Notes under the pieces: model-generated
Seen by the model: only the letters and a program-made list of their open reading frames with translations
Database searches by the model: none
What the model was told of the DNA's origin: nothing
IMG/VR virus record: IMGVR_UViG_3300018432_000008
Coordinates: 1-53,460 of that record
Length of the DNA stretch: 53,460 nt
From: a virus
Lineage: Duplodnaviria; Caudoviricetes
Direction: 5' to 3' (one strand)
Position numbers and translations under genes: made by a program
Shown: positions 17,193-36,289 of the stretch, piece after piece
Position numbering within the stretch: position 1 is the first letter of the stretch
Layout of the letters: each line of letters starts with the position of its first letter

Positions 17193-17449
17193 ACCGACGC
17201 TCATTCTTCTCGTCCATCGGCGGATTCCTTGCCGCCGCGATATGCGCCAAGTTCCTCTCTGCTCGCCCCGAGCCTGAGTGGCCGTGGGAGGTGGAGAAGA
17301 TCGAGTATGGATTCGCTGATTTGCGTGATGGTGTGGCGGATGTCACGGTGACGTACACGCTCAAGACCCCGCGCACCAATGAGAGTGCGGTTGAACTGCT
17401 CGCGCGAATCGCGAACAACACCGTTGACAGCCCGCACGTGCAACTTTGA
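17189..17449 (+). CDS. Small protein with a Tat-like N-terminus
   Basis: MNRRSFFSSIGGFLAAA. Confidence 0.55.
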   Translation: MNRRSFFSSIGGFLAAAICAKFLSARPEPEWPWEVEKIEYGFADLRDGVADVTVTYTLKTPRTNESAVELLARIANNTVDSPHVQL

Positions 17450-19341
17450 CCCCGCGCACCCGACAACTCGCCCTGACCATCGACCGTGACCGCCGCCGCC
17501 TGGAACTGATCGGCGTGCGTGCGGCCCACCGCATCGGCACGCAAGCGCGAACACTCGCCTACGCTGCTTGGCGAACCACACGTGACGTACACGCGGTACG
17601 CAACGCGGTAACGAACGTCCTGCGCGGCAACGCTCGGCTCGGGTTGACCGGTATTACTCCGCTGATCCGTGACGGGATGGTCACGGCGCACCTTGAGGGG
17701 CGCAGGCGGACGGCCATTCTTGCCGCACCGGAGTTACGCAAGGGGCTGAAGCTGTCCGTGTCGGCGTTTGACGAGGCGCTGCGGTTCCTCATTCGCCGGC
17801 TCATGCTCACTCCCGCGCAGCTTGAAGCGTTGCGGGCCGGTTTCCAGGCTGAGGCGTTGCGCGTGACCGACGTGCTGACGGGGCAGATCGAGAAGGCTGT
17901 TGAGTCGGTGCTCATTGAGCAAATCAGCGAAGGCGCGAGCGTACCGGAAGGGGTAACGGCGCTGCGGCGGACGTTCGAATCCGAGGGGTTCGTACCCGCT
18001 GCGGACCACACGCTTGAAGCGGTGTTTCGCACGCAGACGCAGACGGCTTACAGCGCGGGACGGTGGAACGCGCTACAGGACCCTGCGATTCAGGACATCC
18101 TTTGGGGCTTCGAATACGCGGCCATCACAGACGACCGCGTGACCGAGGACATCTGCTTGCCGCTGAACGGCATGGTGCGGACGAAGGATGATCCGGTGTG
18201 GCAGCGATTGACACCACCGAACCACTGGAACGCTTTGGCGTCTGGAACACTGATTCGCACGCAGGCTGGCGAAGTTCCGATTGAGTGGGTTCAGCCCGGC
18301 GATCAGGTGTTCACGCATCGTGGTCGGTTCCGGCGCGTGTATGCCGCGATGGAGAAGCGGGCCAAGCCGATTATCCGCGAGCTACACCTTTCGACCGGAC
18401 GGCGTTTGCGAATCACGGATGAGCACCCGGTACTTACGTCTTGCGGGTGGCAACCCGCTGGGAATCTCAATGCTGGGGACGTGCTGTTTGAGCACATCGA
18501 GAAAGTGGCCGGGAGCGGTCACGTTCTCCTGTCTCACCCTGAGAATTTTCCATCCCTTATCGATGAGCCATTGATCCCGTGGGACGTCGTGCGACTGACG
18601 GGGGCGACTACCGTGCCCCTTGCCGTCGATCTCTACGATGGTCATGAAACGGGGAAAGGCGAAGTCGATAACGAACGACCCGATGGCGTATTGGAAGGCG
18701 AACTCTGCGCCACAGCGAATCAGCAAGTCGCGAAACAGTGCTTCGTAGGCGGTGGGCTTCTGACGCCAAGCGTTAGCCTTGCCGATCGCCGCAGTCTCAC
18801 GAACTCGTGCGTTACGCATCGGGTTCGACCGCTTCATTCGTTCCGAAGAATCCGGCCGGGACTTTCCGTAGCACCAGTGGCGAACCCCTTGATGCTTCGC
18901 CAAAACTTCGGGGAGTCGGCCAGTGATTTTCATTTGATCGGTCTTGCTGCGAACGGCAATGCCGAACCGCTTGCACGCCGCAGACAGGGCGGTCTTTCCA
19001 AGCCCGAGCGAGCGTTCGATGGAGCGGAGCGATTCTCCCCTAGTCAAATGACGGTCGGCGATGAGGTCGGCCAAGACTTGCTTGTCAGTGAAATGTGGCG
19101 TCATGCGACAATCATACGAATTGTCGAAGTACCGTCAACAACGAAGGTTCACAACCTCGCGGTTGAAGACGACGAAACGTATTTGGCTGAAGGCGTGATC
19201 GTCCACAATTGCCGCAGCACGATCCTCGAACTGTACGACGAACGACCGATTACGCCTGTCCCGAACGTGACGCCGCAGCGCGGGTTCGGGTTCAACCCCG
19301 GCAACGTGTTCCGCGACACGATCAGGCCCGCAGCAGCATGA
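17446..19341 (+). CDS. MuF (gp30-like) minor head protein containing an intein
   Basis: FRTQTQTAYSAGRW, YAAITDDRVT..C, PPNHWN|CRS split by the intein; spliced product about 305 aa. Confidence 0.9.
   Translation: MTPRTRQLALTIDRDRRRLELIGVRAAHRIGTQARTLAYAAWRTTRDVHAVRNAVTNVLRGNARLGLTGITPLIRDGMVTAHLEGRRRTAILAAPELRKGLKLSVSAFDEALRFLIRRLMLTPAQLEALRAGFQAEALRVTDVLTGQIEKAVESVLIEQISEGASVPEGVTALRRTFESEGFVPAADHTLEAVFRTQTQTAYSAGRWNALQDPAIQDILWGFEYAAITDDRVTEDICLPLNGMVRTKDDPVWQRLTPPNHWNALASGTLIRTQAGEVPIEWVQPGDQVFTHRGRFRRVYAAMEKRAKPIIRELHLSTGRRLRITDEHPVLTSCGWQPAGNLNAGDVLFEHIEKVAGSGHVLLSHPENFPSLIDEPLIPWDVVRLTGATTVPLAVDLYDGHETGKGEVDNERPDGVLEGELCATANQQVAKQCFVGGGLLTPSVSLADRRSLTNSCVTHRVRPLHSFRRIRPGLSVAPVANPLMLRQNFGESASDFHLIGLAANGNAEPLARRRQGGLSKPERAFDGAERFSPSQMTVGDEVGQDLLVSEMWRHATIIRIVEVPSTTKVHNLAVEDDETYLAEGVIVHNCRSTILELYDERPITPVPNVTPQRGFGFNPGNVFRDTIRPAAA
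18382..19104 (-). CDS. Antisense-nested HTH/NUMOD3-like/DUF559 (Vsr-like) endonuclease, putative homing endonuclease
   Basis: SLRSIERSLGLGKTALSAACKRFGI (HTH); HWCYGKSRPDSSERMKRSNPM; PTAYE..FQYAIGSFVIDFAFP..IVEIDGKGH..D..RDQWLIDKGWKILRV. Confidence 0.88.
   Translation of the reverse strand: MTPHFTDKQVLADLIADRHLTRGESLRSIERSLGLGKTALSAACKRFGIAVRSKTDQMKITGRLPEVLAKHQGVRHWCYGKSRPDSSERMKRSNPMRNARVRETAAIGKANAWRQKPTAYEALFRDLLIRCGAEFAFQYAIGSFVIDFAFPRFMTIVEIDGKGHGSRPRQSHDVPRDQWLIDKGWKILRVRQENVTAPGHFLDVLKQHVPSIEIPSGLPPARRKYRVLIRDSQTPSGRKV
19111..19138 (-). promoter_or_regulatory. Sigma70-type promoter for the antisense endonuclease (leaderless type)
   Basis: Minus strand TTGACG (19138-33), N16, TATGAT (19116-11), N6, ATG 19104. 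Confidence 0.7.
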
Positions 19342-19344
19342 GCG

Positions 19345-19536
19345 TTAGACCTGAGCGGAGCTAGCTTTGGCGCGATGCTTTTTCTCTTGGTCGGTTCGCA
19401 CGGCAAGCTTTAGCAGTTGACGAAGAATCCTCGTCTCCCGAACTGCCTCGCCTAAACGCTTACGCACATCTGCTTCGCTTGGGATGTTGGATAGCAGGGC
19501 GGGCATTTCGCGAGGCTTAGATAGGTCGGCGTTCAT
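19345..19536 (-). CDS. Small counter-oriented protein, probably leaderless
   Basis: TGG-TAGAAT-N6-ATG. Confidence 0.6.
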   Translation of the reverse strand: MNADLSKPREMPALLSNIPSEADVRKRLGEAVRETRILRQLLKLAVRTDQEKKHRAKASSAQV

Positions 19537-19552
19537 CGCCTGATTCTACCAC

Positions 19553-19798
19553 ATGAACTGCAAAGAGTGCCGTCACTGGCAAGGCCATCACAAGGACAAC
19601 GCCAGAATTGAGTGGGGTCGGTGTTCCTACGCCGAGAACGTTCAATCCCTCATGCGGCCCACTGCGCATCAGGCGACGTTTACGCCGGACATTTCTGGCA
19701 AGCATGCAGGAATCTTGACTACGCATGCGTGGTTTGGGTGCGTGCATTTCGACCGTGATAAGTCGCCGCGAACGATTCAGCTTCTAGAACTCGACTGA
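19553..19798 (+). CDS. Small 4-Cys protein, paralog of 71-295
   Basis: CKECRHW..WGRCSYAENVQSLMRPT..AGILTTHAWFGCVHF. Confidence 0.7.
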   Translation: MNCKECRHWQGHHKDNARIEWGRCSYAENVQSLMRPTAHQATFTPDISGKHAGILTTHAWFGCVHFDRDKSPRTIQLLELD

Positions 19799-36243: not shown

Positions 36244-36289
36244 TTGACGACGCACATTCCCGATGTACGATACTTCCACAGGTGACACA
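36244..36289 (+). promoter_or_regulatory. Early promoter TTGACG-N16-TACGAT with GTGACACA box
   Basis: Read directly; inverted TGTGTCAC box near 36220. Confidence 0.6.

What the first reader, a model, noticed from the sequence alone, without database searches (positions are those of the whole stretch)
18232..19209. Intein whose homing endonuclease is encoded on the opposite strand (double-coded intein)
Seen: MuF motif HWN|CRS is split by a 326-aa intein. Between blocks B and F, where an in-frame LAGLIDADG or HNH domain normally sits, the + frame reads as about 200 aa with no recognisable motif. The - strand carries a complete 240-aa HTH + NUMOD3-like + DUF559/Vsr-like nuclease (18382-19104). 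The two frames are codon-in-register, so the intein frame stays open because the nuclease has no TTA, CTA or TCA codons. Known: Vsr-like endonucleases occur free-standing between split-intein halves ('fractured genes'). Inference: this is a contiguous intein carrying a separately expressed antisense homing gene and splicing out its antisense translation as filler, possibly an intermediate toward split inteins. An in-frame Met at 19093 could start an IntC-like fragment. I cannot establish from sequence alone whether this arrangement has been described.
Basis: partly seen in the sequence, partly recalled or inferred. Interest (0 to 1): 0.95.

Follow-up and report, generated by a model that had tools for sequence, protein, structure and literature searches.

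The report
Intein with antisense homing nuclease gene
A phage head-assembly gene carries a self-splicing intein whose homing nuclease is written on the opposite DNA strand, a real and clearly selected arrangement that other groups have already described in other phages.

Summary
The + ORF 17446-19341 (631 aa) is a MuF head-morphogenesis protein. A 326-aa Hint intein (18232-19209; Ala1, Cys+1) interrupts it at HWN|CRS. The - strand ORF 18382-19104 encodes a 240-aa DUF559/Vsr-like (EDxHD-type) nuclease, codon-in-register with the intein frame.

In this 62% GC window alone, the open + frame could be chance (P about 0.02-0.06). Relatives settle the question:
- All 18 contiguous antisense loci examined have zero TTA/CTA/TCA codons in the nuclease gene. 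Two of them are cultured Vibrio phages. In the 12 loci with at most 48% GC, 8-16 such codons are expected.
- Eight split relatives carry 5-25 in-frame stops.
- Fourteen relatives with the nuclease in frame on the sense strand carry 4-20 such codons.

Codon-position substitution patterns follow the nuclease frame in the middle of the intein and the Hint frame at its ends. AlphaFold2 gives a confident Hint fold with a 196-residue low-confidence middle, and a confident nuclease.

Splicing, expression and cleavage remain untested.

The kind is already in print. Antisense LAGLIDADG nucleases in inteins are cited to Gorbalenya 1998, and antisense VSR-like nucleases in full inteins are reported in Gosselin, Arsenault and Gogarten (bioRxiv 2025).

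Verdict: a new member of a known kind. The possibly new parts are the stop-avoidance statistics and the split-antisense and in-frame sense variants at the same MuF site.

The parts
17446..18231 (+). MuF (SPP1 gp7-like head morphogenesis / minor capsid) N-extein, ending ...PPNHWN
   Evidence: ORF. Phage_Mu_F, residues 152-262, E 3.7e-10. TIGR01641, E 4.3e-10.
18232..18501 (+). Intein N-terminal Hint part (intein residues 1-90): block A ALASGT with Ala1; block B TDEHPVLT at 18415-18438
   Evidence: Hint_2 and PT-HINT. invariant T62, H65, P66, G72, W73. mean pLDDT 72-92 per block of 10 residues for residues 1-90. Foldseek matches to inteins.
18502..19089 (+). Filler: 196 residues of the intein frame that are the in-register antisense translation of the nuclease gene
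   Evidence: 0 Pfam families at E <= 1 for 18520-19090; residues 91-286 have pLDDT < 50.: + frame position 1 changes fastest; + frame amino-acid identity is 17-18% against 29% for the antisense frame.
19090..19209 (+). Intein C-terminal Hint part (intein residues 287-326): blocks F and G, ending VIVHN
   Evidence: intein_Cterm, residues 568-589. invariant N308, V311, D314, H325, N326. mean pLDDT 84-87 per block of 10 residues from residue 291 on (46 for the block 281-290).
19210..19341 (+). MuF C-extein starting with Cys+1 (CRSTILE...), plus the stop codon
   Evidence: The intein-less homolog P0009 reads PPNHWS|CRSTVLELF.
18382..19104 (-). 240-aa antisense nuclease gene (stop codon at 18382-18384), codon-in-register with the intein frame
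   Evidence: ORF. DUF559, E 3.3e-12; five homologs at 30-57% identity; register offset 0. AF2 mean pLDDT 83.7; best fold match 3r3p (I-Bth0305I).
18514..18777 (-). DUF559 / Vsr-like catalytic core (nuclease residues 110-197) with D147, E158, D160, H164, D173, R176 and D177
   Evidence: DUF559 stretch 110-197; invariant or nearly invariant columns; 3hrl, E 2.3e-8. ExDGxxH intact.
18385..18501 (-). Nuclease C-terminal tail co-encoded with Hint blocks; for example V227 (GTG) lies opposite the block B His codon CAC
   Evidence: Read; in the Hint-overlap columns the + frame position 3 changes fastest and + frame identity (42%) exceeds nuclease identity (33%); mean pLDDT 59-77 per block of 10 residues from residue 211 on.
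19111..19138 (-). Sigma-70-like promoter site TTGACG-16-TATGAT. It ends 6 nt before the nuclease ATG (19104) and lies inside intein C-terminal codons.
   Evidence: the only promoter-like site in 17300-19700, 10 of 12 matches, shuffles give a mean of 0.5. TTGACG-N16-TANNAT occurs twice in the window against 0.01 expected.
19106..19126 (.). 7-7-7 inverted repeat CGACAAT-N7-ATTGTCG overlapping the -10 hexamer
   Evidence: Read directly. Also noted in earlier finding e1-6298555. Function untested.

Best explanation
The MuF head-morphogenesis gene of this complete 53.5-kb phage carries a contiguous, cis-splicing Hint intein at the conserved H-x-N|C-R-S motif. A free-standing type of homing nuclease (DUF559 / Vsr-like, EDxHD type) is encoded on the opposite strand. 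It sits in the place where an in-frame endonuclease domain normally lies, and its codons are in register with the intein's.

**Proposed mechanism (inferred unless marked as shown).**
1. The late MuF mRNA is translated straight through the antisense image of the nuclease gene. This gives a 631-aa precursor with about 196 disordered residues between the two Hint halves.
2. The Hint halves associate and splice. The products are a MuF of about 305 aa with the HWN-CRS motif restored, and a 326-aa intein that is discarded.
3. The nuclease is made from its own signals embedded in the intein C-terminal codons. In this phage these are a promoter-like site and a probably leaderless start. In most relatives there is a Shine-Dalgarno-like sequence.
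4. The nuclease cuts intein-less MuF alleles during co-infection, so that repair copies the whole element in.

**Shown by comparison.** Selection keeps the intein frame free of stops by excluding TTA, CTA and TCA from the nuclease gene. In the middle of the element selection acts on the nuclease protein. At the ends it acts on the Hint protein.
For: **Domains and fold.**
- MuF, Hint and DUF559 are assigned on the stated strands.
- The AF2 model of the + frame has a confident Hint fold at residues 1-90 and 287-326, and pLDDT < 50 for residues 91-286.
- Foldseek gives 38 matches at E <= 1e-3 for that model. The listed rows are inteins and other Hint domains (bacterial intein-like, BIL2, hedgehog).
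- The nuclease model has mean pLDDT 83.7.
- Its best fold matches are 3r3p (I-Bth0305I catalytic domain, E 1.2e-3, TMt 0.67-0.69), then 3hrl and Vsr 1cw0/1vsr. By sequence, 3hrl scores E 2.3e-8.

**Family-wide arrangement.**
- A scan of viral contigs confirmed 207 MuF-intein loci. The best 80 were kept and examined.
- All 25 distinct loci with an antisense nuclease at E < 1e-8 have register offset 0 to the IntN frame.

**Stop avoidance.**
- All 18 contiguous antisense loci (the window, 15 viral contigs and 2 Vibrio phages) have 0 TTA/CTA/TCA codons in the nuclease ORF.
- Expected counts range from 0.8 to 16.4. log10 P(0) runs from -0.4 to -10.0, and from -4.3 to -10.0 in the 12 loci with GC <= 0.48.
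- 8 split loci have 5-25 such codons, against 12.8-21.9 expected.
- 14 loci with the same nuclease family in frame on the sense strand have 4-20 such codons. None of the 14 has zero.

**Selection by frame.**
- With the alignment built on the nuclease protein, differences in the filler at nuclease positions 1/2/3 are 0.564/0.495/0.691. In the Hint overlap they are 0.578/0.316/0.460.
- With the alignment built on the + frame protein, differences in the filler at + positions 1/2/3 are 0.685/0.492/0.573. In IntN they are 0.506/0.405/0.689, and in IntC 0.356/0.322/0.667.

**Viability.** Cultured Vibrio phages 1.265.O, 1.266.O and 1.082.O match the nuclease on the strand opposite an annotated CDS. 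That CDS is a Hint-domain protein in the first two and a 'coil containing protein' in 1.082.O. In the two records I opened, 1.265.O and 1.266.O, no antisense ORF is annotated. Salmonella phage PK1 carries a related arrangement.

**Expression signals.**
- A promoter-like site lies 6 nt upstream of the ATG.
- By my reading of the printed upstream sequences, most relatives have a Shine-Dalgarno-like sequence before the nuclease ATG.

**Insertion.** The intein-less homolog P0009 has 55% identity over the MuF part and reads PPNHWS|CRST.
Against: - No experiment or expression data bears on this phage. The only sequencing run found is a DNA run from a soil metagenome.
- The intein has Ala at position 1, so the standard class 1 first step cannot occur. 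Splicing would need a class 2-like route through Cys+1. That mechanism is recalled, not tested. Relatives have Ala, Ser or Cys at position 1.
- In the window alone, the open frame is only weakly unlikely by chance (P about 0.02).
- The window has no Shine-Dalgarno sequence before the nuclease ATG. Translation would therefore have to be leaderless, which is an inference.
- Foldseek support for the nuclease fold is just over the 1e-3 line.
- Only the best 80 of the 207 confirmed loci were examined. The proportions of each architecture are therefore biased toward relatives of the window.
Confidence: 0.8

Rival explanations
1. The open + frame in this GC-rich phage is chance. Functionally the locus would be a split or defective intein, and the MuF C-terminal 43 residues would be made from an internal start such as Met 19093, or be dispensable.
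For: In the window alone about 3.7 or about 2.8 TTA/CTA/TCA codons are expected, so P(0) is about 0.02-0.06. Several window ORFs of 200 aa or more also have none. Split relatives with an antisense nuclease exist.
Against: - With no stop codon, translation must read through, so a contiguous precursor is made in any case.
- All 18 contiguous relatives have zero such codons, including low-GC ones where 8-16 are expected.
- Met 19093 is not conserved: 0 of 6 homologs have it. I saw no Shine-Dalgarno-like sequence just upstream when reading.
Confidence: 0.05
2. The + frame middle part is itself a functional domain, for example a new endonuclease or a DNA-binding module. The antisense DUF559 ORF would then be an unexpressed relic.
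For: The + frame is conserved as an open frame across the family. A few + frame columns in the middle are invariant: L416, H464 and P477 of the precursor.
Against: - No Pfam match at E <= 1.
- pLDDT < 50 over residues 91-286.
- In the filler the + frame position 1 changes fastest, and + frame amino-acid identity (17-18%) is below that of the antisense frame (29%), whichever protein the alignment is built on.
- The nuclease keeps its ExDGxxH motif and folds with confidence.
Confidence: 0.03
3. The arrangement is as described, but in this phage the nuclease no longer drives homing. It could be inactive, silenced, or kept for another role such as antisense control of MuF or general anti-competitor cleavage.
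For: - The Salmonella Jerseyvirus homolog keeps the open in-register ORF (0 TTA/CTA/TCA against 9.7 expected), but has E-V-F-G-G-G-W in place of ExDGxxH.
- Truncated or remnant antisense ORFs exist in L016 and L043.
- No expression data exist for the window.
Against: The window nuclease keeps every invariant residue of the family and has a promoter-like site at its start. The substitution pattern shows purifying selection on the nuclease frame across the family.
Confidence: 0.12

Closest known systems
Anti-sense VSR-like homing endonuclease in full inteins of actinobacteriophages (Gosselin, Arsenault, Gogarten, bioRxiv 10.1101/2025.01.02.630785; abstract, found passages and section 15 read)
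   Same: - The intein is contiguous.
- A Vsr-like nuclease ORF lies on the antisense strand in the endonuclease-insertion region.
- The in-frame middle part has no recognisable structure.
- The nuclease relates to 3R3P (EDxHD) and Vsr 1CW0.
- Minor capsid proteins are among the hosts of non-canonical inteins in that survey.
   Different: - This element comes from a soil-metagenome phage with 62% GC, not from an actinophage collection.
- My tblastn with the window nuclease found no actinophage at E <= 1e-3, so the nuclease lineages are distant.
[quoted passage not shown] Here about 39 codons overlap IntN, including block B.
- In the parts I read, the preprint does not report the in-register rule, stop-codon avoidance statistics, split-antisense forms or in-frame Vsr-like forms.
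I cannot say which host proteins carry its VSR-like inteins.
Anti-sense or out-of-frame LAGLIDADG nuclease in the cyanobacterial DnaX intein. Gorbalenya 1998 and Gogarten 2002 are known to me only as cited. Phillips, DeSimone, Gogarten, bioRxiv 10.64898/2026.09.14.751524: passages read.
   Same: The splicing function and the homing nuclease are encoded by overlapping reading frames of one element. Selection depends on the frame: it is low on the nuclease frame and relaxed on the intein frame in the overlap.
   Different: - The nuclease family differs (LAGLIDADG against DUF559/Vsr-like).
- The host gene differs (dnaX against MuF).
- The host is a cellular genome, not a phage.
- The 2026 preprint calls its frame '+2ORF', which differs from the in-register antisense frame seen here.
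Fractured genes: a split intein with a free-standing Vsr-like or GIY-YIG nuclease gene between the halves (Dassa et al. 2009, PMC2677866; passages read)
   Same: - The nuclease superfamily is the same, with a modular N-terminal DNA-binding part.
- The nuclease gene sits at the same place within the Hint domain.
- The context is phage.
- The nuclease gene brings its own control elements.
- Relative L067 has exactly this layout at the MuF site.
   Different: - That paper states that all three coding regions lie on the same strand and that the host gene is broken in two.
- Here the nuclease is antisense and the host gene is one ORF.
- That paper says Vsr-like nucleases were not known inside inteins.
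I-Bth0305I, prototype of the EDxHD homing endonuclease family (Taylor et al. 2011, PMC3239194; passages read)
   Same: The catalytic fold is Vsr-like and is the best structural match (3r3p). Acidic and His residues are conserved. An N-terminal DNA-binding region precedes a C-terminal nuclease domain.
   Different: I-Bth0305I is encoded in a group I intron of recA on the sense strand. Sequence similarity to the window protein is too low to appear in the PDB sequence search at E <= 1.

Membership tests
Intein (Hint-domain protein-splicing element) | Hint fold made of an N-terminal and a C-terminal part flanking the endonuclease-insertion site | tested here: met
   Intein_splicing E 1.2e-8, Hint_2 E 4.7e-7; confident strands in residues 1-90 and 287-326; 38 Foldseek matches at E <= 1e-3, with gp41-1, Mtu RecA and DnaB inteins among the top rows.
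Intein (Hint-domain protein-splicing element) | Block B Thr-x-x-His | tested here: met
   TDEHPVLT at 18415-18438. T62 and H65 are invariant in 13 sequences.
Intein (Hint-domain protein-splicing element) | C-terminal His-Asn followed by a Cys, Ser or Thr +1 nucleophile | tested here: met
   VIVHN|CRST. H325 and N326 are invariant. C589 is invariant in 7 precursors.
Intein (Hint-domain protein-splicing element) | Cys, Ser or Thr nucleophile at intein position 1 (class 1 mechanism) | tested here: not met
   Position 1 is Ala (GCT at 18232). The 12 relatives with junctions found have Ala (7), Ser (3) or Cys (2). That class 2 inteins with Ala1 can splice through Cys+1 is recalled, not tested.
Intein (Hint-domain protein-splicing element) | In-frame insertion within a conserved host-protein motif, with intein-less homologs | tested here: met
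   A single 631-aa ORF. The intein-less homolog P0009 reads PPNHWS|CRST at the same point.
Intein (Hint-domain protein-splicing element) | Protein-splicing activity | not testable with these tools
   Needs an expression assay. Indirect support only: cultured Vibrio and Salmonella phages carry the same layout in this head gene.
DUF559 / Vsr-like (EDxHD) homing endonuclease | Match to the DUF559 profile above its curated cut-off | tested here: met
   46.7 bits against a cut-off of 20.6, E 3.3e-12, residues 110-197. The Vsr profile itself is not met: TIGR00632 gives E 0.18 and 12.1 bits against 97.85.
DUF559 / Vsr-like (EDxHD) homing endonuclease | Vsr-like restriction-endonuclease fold | tested here: met
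   core pLDDT above 90; 3r3p (E 1.2e-3, TMt 0.67-0.69), 3hrl and 1cw0/1vsr are the top specific matches. The E-values are borderline; 3hrl E 2.3e-8 by sequence.
DUF559 / Vsr-like (EDxHD) homing endonuclease | Conserved Glu, Asp, His and Asp catalytic residues | tested here: inconclusive
   E158, D160, H164 and D173 are invariant and D147 and D177 nearly invariant in 20 sequences. The motif is intact in the window. I did not map these residue by residue onto I-Bth0305I or Vsr.
DUF559 / Vsr-like (EDxHD) homing endonuclease | N-terminal NUMOD or HTH DNA-binding modules | tested here: inconclusive
   No NUMOD or HTH Pfam family at E <= 1 for the window protein. AF2 gives helices at 8-61. The Salmonella phage homolog matches HTH_7 weakly, E 0.0052.
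DUF559 / Vsr-like (EDxHD) homing endonuclease | Site-specific cleavage of the element-free allele | not testable with these tools
   Needs purified protein and an intein-less MuF target.
Full intein with an anti-sense VSR-like nuclease (Gosselin et al. 2025 preprint) | Nuclease ORF on the antisense strand inside a contiguous intein, with no recognisable fold in the in-frame middle part | tested here: met
   Preprint passages.
Fractured gene (Dassa et al. 2009) | Host gene broken into two ORFs by a split intein | tested here: not met
   One uninterrupted 631-aa ORF. Relatives L021, L027, L032, L035, L040, L045, L046 and L048 are broken.
Fractured gene (Dassa et al. 2009) | [quoted passage not shown] | tested here: not met
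   The nuclease is on the - strand. The paper states that all three coding regions are on the same strand.

The most novel reading that the evidence does not exclude
The H-x-N|C-R-S site of phage MuF genes holds a natural series of all stages of intein and homing-gene co-evolution.

**The stages seen.**
- Mini-inteins.
- Split mini-inteins.
- A sense free-standing nuclease between split halves.
- The same Vsr-like nuclease fused in frame.
- The nuclease antisense in a contiguous intein.
- The nuclease antisense in a split intein.

**What this would imply.**
- The contiguous antisense state exists only in the one antisense frame whose stops (TTA, CTA, TCA) can all be removed by synonymous changes.
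- That state is held there by strong selection.
- It has decayed at least twice into 'antisense fractured genes', a route to split inteins that is absent from the published model.
- Removing 10-20 stops at once is improbable, so the contiguous antisense form probably arose in GC-rich DNA such as this phage and then spread into AT-rich phages under the no-stop constraint.

In the papers I could search, I did not find split inteins with an antisense nuclease, or in-frame Vsr-like nucleases inside inteins.
Probability: 0.45. Interest if true: 0.6.

Novelty: new member of a known kind. Interest (0 to 1): 0.45.

Why it matters
**What is ordinary.** For intein biology this window is one more example of a layout that is now documented, so by itself it is not a discovery.

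**What could be worth more.**
- The comparative set it opened holds 74 non-identical loci at one insertion site. It also includes plaque-forming Vibrio and Salmonella phages.
- This set gives a clean natural experiment in dual coding. The same nuclease family is found sense in frame, sense free-standing, antisense in a contiguous intein, and antisense in a split intein.
- The signature of selection is all-or-none: zero TTA/CTA/TCA codons against 5-25.
- That makes two ideas testable in culturable systems. One is the model for how free-standing homing genes enter inteins. The other is how split inteins arise.

**Practical points.**
- Gene callers annotate only one of the two overlapping genes in these loci.
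- A Hint domain that tolerates about 200 disordered residues could interest protein engineers.

Tried and rejected
**Lines that led nowhere.**
I could not read the contigs of P0001-P0013 and used the search for related loci instead.
- RNA evidence: the look-up of sequencing runs listed one DNA run from a soil metagenome, which may be the source sample. No RNA holder was listed. Read laying was not used because nothing informative could be laid.
- Pfam gave no NUMOD3 or HTH family for the window nuclease at E <= 1.
- Foldseek on the nuclease model gave no match at E <= 1e-3. The best was 3r3p at 1.2e-3. I did not run the VIA-align libraries.

**Readings considered and rejected.**
- The idea that Met 19093 starts an IntC fragment: 0 of 6 homologs have Met at that column.
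- The worry that the substitution pattern was an artefact of aligning on the nuclease protein: repeating it on a + frame alignment gave the same result.
- The idea that the nuclease family intrinsically avoids TTA/CTA/TCA: sense-oriented copies have 4-20 of them.

**Weak evidence.** The nuclease-core tree was a quick search with 15 of 38 inner branches unresolved. Only the single clade of sense in-frame copies (SH-aLRT 98) is well supported. 'Two origins of the split state' is a parsimony count, and the well-supported branches do not force it.

**Rows dropped.**
- Exact duplicates L019, L033 and L034 were dropped.
- L028, a near copy of L027, was dropped.
- Weak antisense hits L042, L043, L078 and L093 were left out of the statistics.
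- L067 dropped out of the tree for lack of a core match.
- The third Vibrio phage record was not opened.

**Literature searches.** (8 of 10 used). I found no paper on split inteins with an antisense nuclease, on in-frame Vsr-like nucleases in inteins, or on stop-codon avoidance in antisense intein nucleases. The supplements of the 2025 preprint were closed and may bear on this.

Full report
**1. What is in the window**

The window is a complete virus record of 53,460 bases with direct terminal repeats. It has 61.7% GC. The only sequencing run found to hold it is labelled a soil metagenome.

The + ORF 17446..19341 encodes 631 aa and the - ORF 18382..19104 encodes 240 aa.

On the + protein, Pfam finds:
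- Phage_Mu_F, residues 152-262, E 3.7e-10.
- Intein_splicing, residues 298-588.
- Hint_2, residues 264-307.

NCBIfam adds the SPP1 gp7 domain and intein_Cterm (residues 568-589).

Reading the DNA shows the MuF motif as ...CCG AAC CAC TGG AAC | GCT TTG GCG ... GTC CAC AAT | TGC CGC AGC. The intein therefore runs from 18232 to 19209 (326 aa). It begins with Ala, ends with His-Asn, and is followed by Cys.

The closest intein-less homolog found is P0009, with 55% identity over the MuF part. It reads PPNHWS|CRSTVLELF at this point.

The - strand protein matches DUF559 at E 3.3e-12, well above the curated cut-off. The + frame across 18520-19090 matches nothing at E <= 1. The two frames are codon-in-register, and the nuclease ORF has no TTA, CTA or TCA codon.

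I could not confirm that label.

**2. Is it more than chance?**

Not in the window alone.
- From the codon usage of the MuF exteins, 3.7 such codons are expected in the 250-codon stop-to-stop ORF, so P(0) = 0.02.
- The window-wide rate is 1.18 per 100 codons, and several other long ORFs also have none.

The answer comes from relatives.
- A scan of viral contigs with an alignment of MuF-intein proteins confirmed 207 loci. The best 80 were kept.
- A scan with the nuclease alignment gave 13 loci, 6 of them on the same contigs.
- I built HMMs for the nuclease, for the MuF-IntN part and for the IntC part, and searched all stop-to-stop ORFs.

Among 74 non-identical loci, the window included:

| Intein state | Nuclease | Loci |
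|---|---|---|
| Contiguous | Antisense | 17, plus 4 with weak matches |
| Split | Antisense | 9 |
| Contiguous | In frame, sense strand | 12, plus 5 weak |
| Split | Sense match (weak) | 3 |
| Contiguous | No match (mostly mini-inteins) | 18 |
| Split | No match | 6 |

In all 25 distinct loci with a strong antisense match, the nuclease codons are in register with the IntN frame.

**3. Stop avoidance**

- All 18 contiguous antisense loci have zero TTA/CTA/TCA codons in the nuclease ORF. These are the window, 15 viral contigs and two cultured Vibrio phages.
- Their GC content ranges from 0.33 to 0.67.
- Expected counts from the Leu and Ser codon usage of the same gene's exteins are 0.8-16.4.
- In the twelve loci with GC at or below 0.48, expected counts are 8.2-16.4 and log10 P(0) runs from -4.3 to -10.0.
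- The eight split loci have 5-25 such codons, against 12.8-21.9 expected. That is close to no constraint.
- Control: the 14 loci with the same nuclease family in frame on the sense strand have 4-20 such codons in the insert. None has zero.

The distribution is all-or-none. This is what selection for an uninterrupted intein frame predicts. The loci are related, so the P values are not independent. However, third positions of the nuclease frame differ at 69% of sites between pairs, so the absence has been maintained through much synonymous turnover.

**4. Which frame is selected where**

Across all pairs of the 16 contiguous loci, with an alignment built on the nuclease protein:
- In the filler, nuclease codon positions 1/2/3 differ at 0.564/0.495/0.691. 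Nuclease identity is 29% and + frame identity 17%.
- In the part that overlaps the Hint blocks, the values are 0.578/0.316/0.460. + frame identity (42%) exceeds nuclease identity (33%).

Repeating the count on an alignment built on the + frame protein gives the same picture:
- Filler, + positions 1/2/3: 0.685/0.492/0.573.
- IntN: 0.506/0.405/0.689.
- IntC: 0.356/0.322/0.667.

In the middle, then, the amino-acid sequence of the nuclease is what is conserved, and the + frame only has to stay open. At both ends the Hint protein is what is conserved.

The nuclease ORF reaches about 39 codons into IntN. For example, its near-invariant Val227 (GTG) is the complement of the block B His codon, and the conserved tail Y-R-V-L-I-R-D mirrors (I/V)-T-D-E-H-P.

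**5. Structure**

- AlphaFold2 on the 326-aa intein, with 13 sequences, gives mean pLDDT per block of 10 residues of 72-92 for residues 1-90 and 84-87 from residue 291 on. It gives pLDDT < 50 for the 196 residues 91-286.
- Foldseek against the PDB returns inteins and other Hint domains such as gp41-1, Mtu RecA and DnaB, with 38 matches at E <= 1e-3.
- The nuclease model, built with 20 sequences, has mean pLDDT 83.7. Its core is above 90 and its tail weaker.
- The nuclease model's best specific matches are the I-Bth0305I catalytic domain 3r3p (E 1.2e-3, TMt 0.67-0.69), the DUF559 protein 3hrl, and Vsr 1cw0/1vsr.
- A profile search of PDB sequences finds 3hrl at E 2.3e-8.
- E158, D160, H164 and D173 are invariant in 20 sequences, and D147, R176 and D177 nearly so.

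**6. Expression signals**

- The only sigma-70-like site in 17300-19700 is on the - strand at 19138-19111: TTGACG-16-TATGAT, 10 of 12 matches. It ends 6 nt before the nuclease ATG.
- The form TTGACG-N16-TANNAT occurs twice in the whole window, against 0.01 expected. The other copy is at 36244.
- A 7-7-7 inverted repeat overlaps the -10 hexamer.
- The window has no Shine-Dalgarno sequence there, so a leaderless start is inferred.
- By my reading of the printed upstream sequences, most relatives have a Shine-Dalgarno-like sequence before the nuclease ATG.
- No RNA data were available.

**7. Relatives in culture**

- tblastn with the nuclease against 50,697 phage records finds Vibrio phages 1.265.O, 1.266.O and 1.082.O at 31-32% identity over 97-99% of the query. 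The matches lie on the strand opposite an annotated CDS.
- That CDS is a Hint-domain protein in 1.265.O and 1.266.O, and a 'coil containing protein' in 1.082.O.
- In the two records I opened, 1.265.O and 1.266.O, the antisense ORF is not annotated.
- The intein query finds 58 records: 49 Salmonella phages (those I looked at are Jerseyvirus), 3 Vibrio, 3 Gordonia, 2 Escherichia, and 1 listed under the organism name Jerseyvirus.
- In Salmonella phage PK1, the head morphogenesis CDS (630 aa) holds an annotated antisense 'hypothetical protein' of 269 aa. It is in register and has 0 TTA/CTA/TCA codons against 9.7 expected.
- The PK1 antisense protein is homologous to the nuclease family (hhalign probability 97.9%, E 3.7e-13). 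Its catalytic ExDGxxH is replaced.
- These phages form plaques, so the layout is compatible with a working head gene.

**8. The split relatives**

- In L021, L027, L045 and L046, the IntN ORF stops 6-11 residues after the IntN profile ends. The IntC ORF starts with ATG, after a Shine-Dalgarno-like sequence by my reading, shortly before block F. The antisense nuclease lies between them.
- L032, L035, L040 and L048 have 5-13 stops and long junk tails.
- L067 has the classical same-strand fractured layout.
- On a quick tree of the nuclease core (41 rows), the sense in-frame copies form one clade (SH-aLRT 98). The split antisense copies fall in two clusters, one of them nested among contiguous antisense copies. 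Backbone support is weak.

**9. How it most likely works**

Shown:
- The domain content.
- The frame register.
- The stop-free state.
- The frame-specific constraint.

Inferred:
- Read-through translation gives a precursor with a disordered loop.
- The Hint halves splice and restore H-W-N-C-R-S.
- The nuclease is expressed from its own signals and cuts empty alleles.

The in-register antisense frame is the only antisense frame in which every potential stop corresponds to a single sense codon (two Leu codons and one Ser codon) that has synonymous alternatives. This follows from the genetic code. It explains why only this register is seen.

With Ala at position 1, the first splicing step must differ from class 1. 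Relatives have Ala, Ser or Cys there.

**10. Comparison with what is known**

- Dassa et al. 2009 described fractured genes with Vsr-like nucleases. They state that all three coding regions are on the same strand, and that Vsr-like nucleases were not known inside inteins.
- Taylor et al. 2011 defined the EDxHD family around I-Bth0305I.
- The 2025 preprint of Gosselin, Arsenault and Gogarten reports inteins with LAGLIDADG or VSR-like nucleases on the antisense strand of full inteins in actinobacteriophages.
- That preprint names minor capsid proteins among the hosts. It cites Gorbalenya 1998 and Gogarten 2002 for antisense LAGLIDADG nucleases, and it discusses the link to the Dassa model.
- A 2026 preprint shows frame-dependent selection in the dnaX intein with an out-of-frame nuclease.

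The kind is therefore already described, and this window is a new member of it.

What I did not find in the searched literature:
- The in-register rule with its stop-avoidance statistics.
- Split inteins with an antisense nuclease.
- Vsr-like nucleases fused in frame inside inteins.

**11. Verdict**

The finding is real, and its main interpretation is supported by strong comparative evidence. It is not a new kind of system. I score interest at 0.45, because the family at this MuF site is a good natural series for testing how homing genes enter inteins and how split inteins arise.

Noticed in passing
L097 (Salmonella phage PK1, PV360690) 547-2439 + and 1312-2121 -: A Jerseyvirus head morphogenesis gene carries a Cys1 intein at the same MuF site. 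It has an annotated in-register antisense ORF with 0 TTA/CTA/TCA codons against 9.7 expected. That ORF is homologous to the nuclease family, but ExDGxxH is replaced by E-V-F-G-G-G-W, so the nuclease is possibly inactive yet still kept open. 49 Salmonella phage records matched the intein query.
   Followed up: partly
L084, L085, L088-L092, L061, L062, L066, L073, L083 and others (viral contigs): At the same MuF site, contiguous inteins carry the DUF559/MTES_1575/Vsr-like domain in frame on the sense strand. In L084 this is residues 510-617, and Pfam also finds MuF and Hint there. On the nuclease tree they form one clade. I did not find in-frame Vsr-like nucleases in inteins in the papers searched.
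   Followed up: partly
L050, L051, L075 (viral contigs): IntN ends with a stop. IntC is fused to an upstream ORF in another frame that holds an HNH-like C-P-K-C-H motif. This looks like a different nuclease type at the same site.
   Followed up: no
L026, L068, L070, L071 (viral contigs): These are split mini-inteins with no nuclease gene. IntN stops, a gap of about 50-120 nt follows, and IntC then starts with ATG behind a Shine-Dalgarno-like sequence.
   Followed up: no
L016 1942-2520 - and L043 1834-2151 -: These are truncated or remnant antisense nuclease ORFs inside shorter, still contiguous inteins. In L016 the nuclease lacks its N-terminal third. In L043 only the last 70 or so profile positions remain. 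They look like decay toward a mini-intein.
   Followed up: no
window 36244-36271 +: This is the second and only other copy in the window of TTGACG-N16-TANNAT (expected 0.01). It has the same form as the site in front of the antisense nuclease gene.
   Followed up: partly
window 18232; loci: Intein position 1 varies within this one family: Ala in 7, Ser in 3 and Cys in 2 of the 12 relatives with junctions found. Cys+1 is constant. This suggests shifts of splicing mechanism within a lineage.
   Followed up: no
L014 454-1332 - (viral contig): Besides the in-register nuclease ORF, a longer 293-codon antisense open frame in another register overlaps the insert in this 45% GC locus. I did not examine it.
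   Followed up: no
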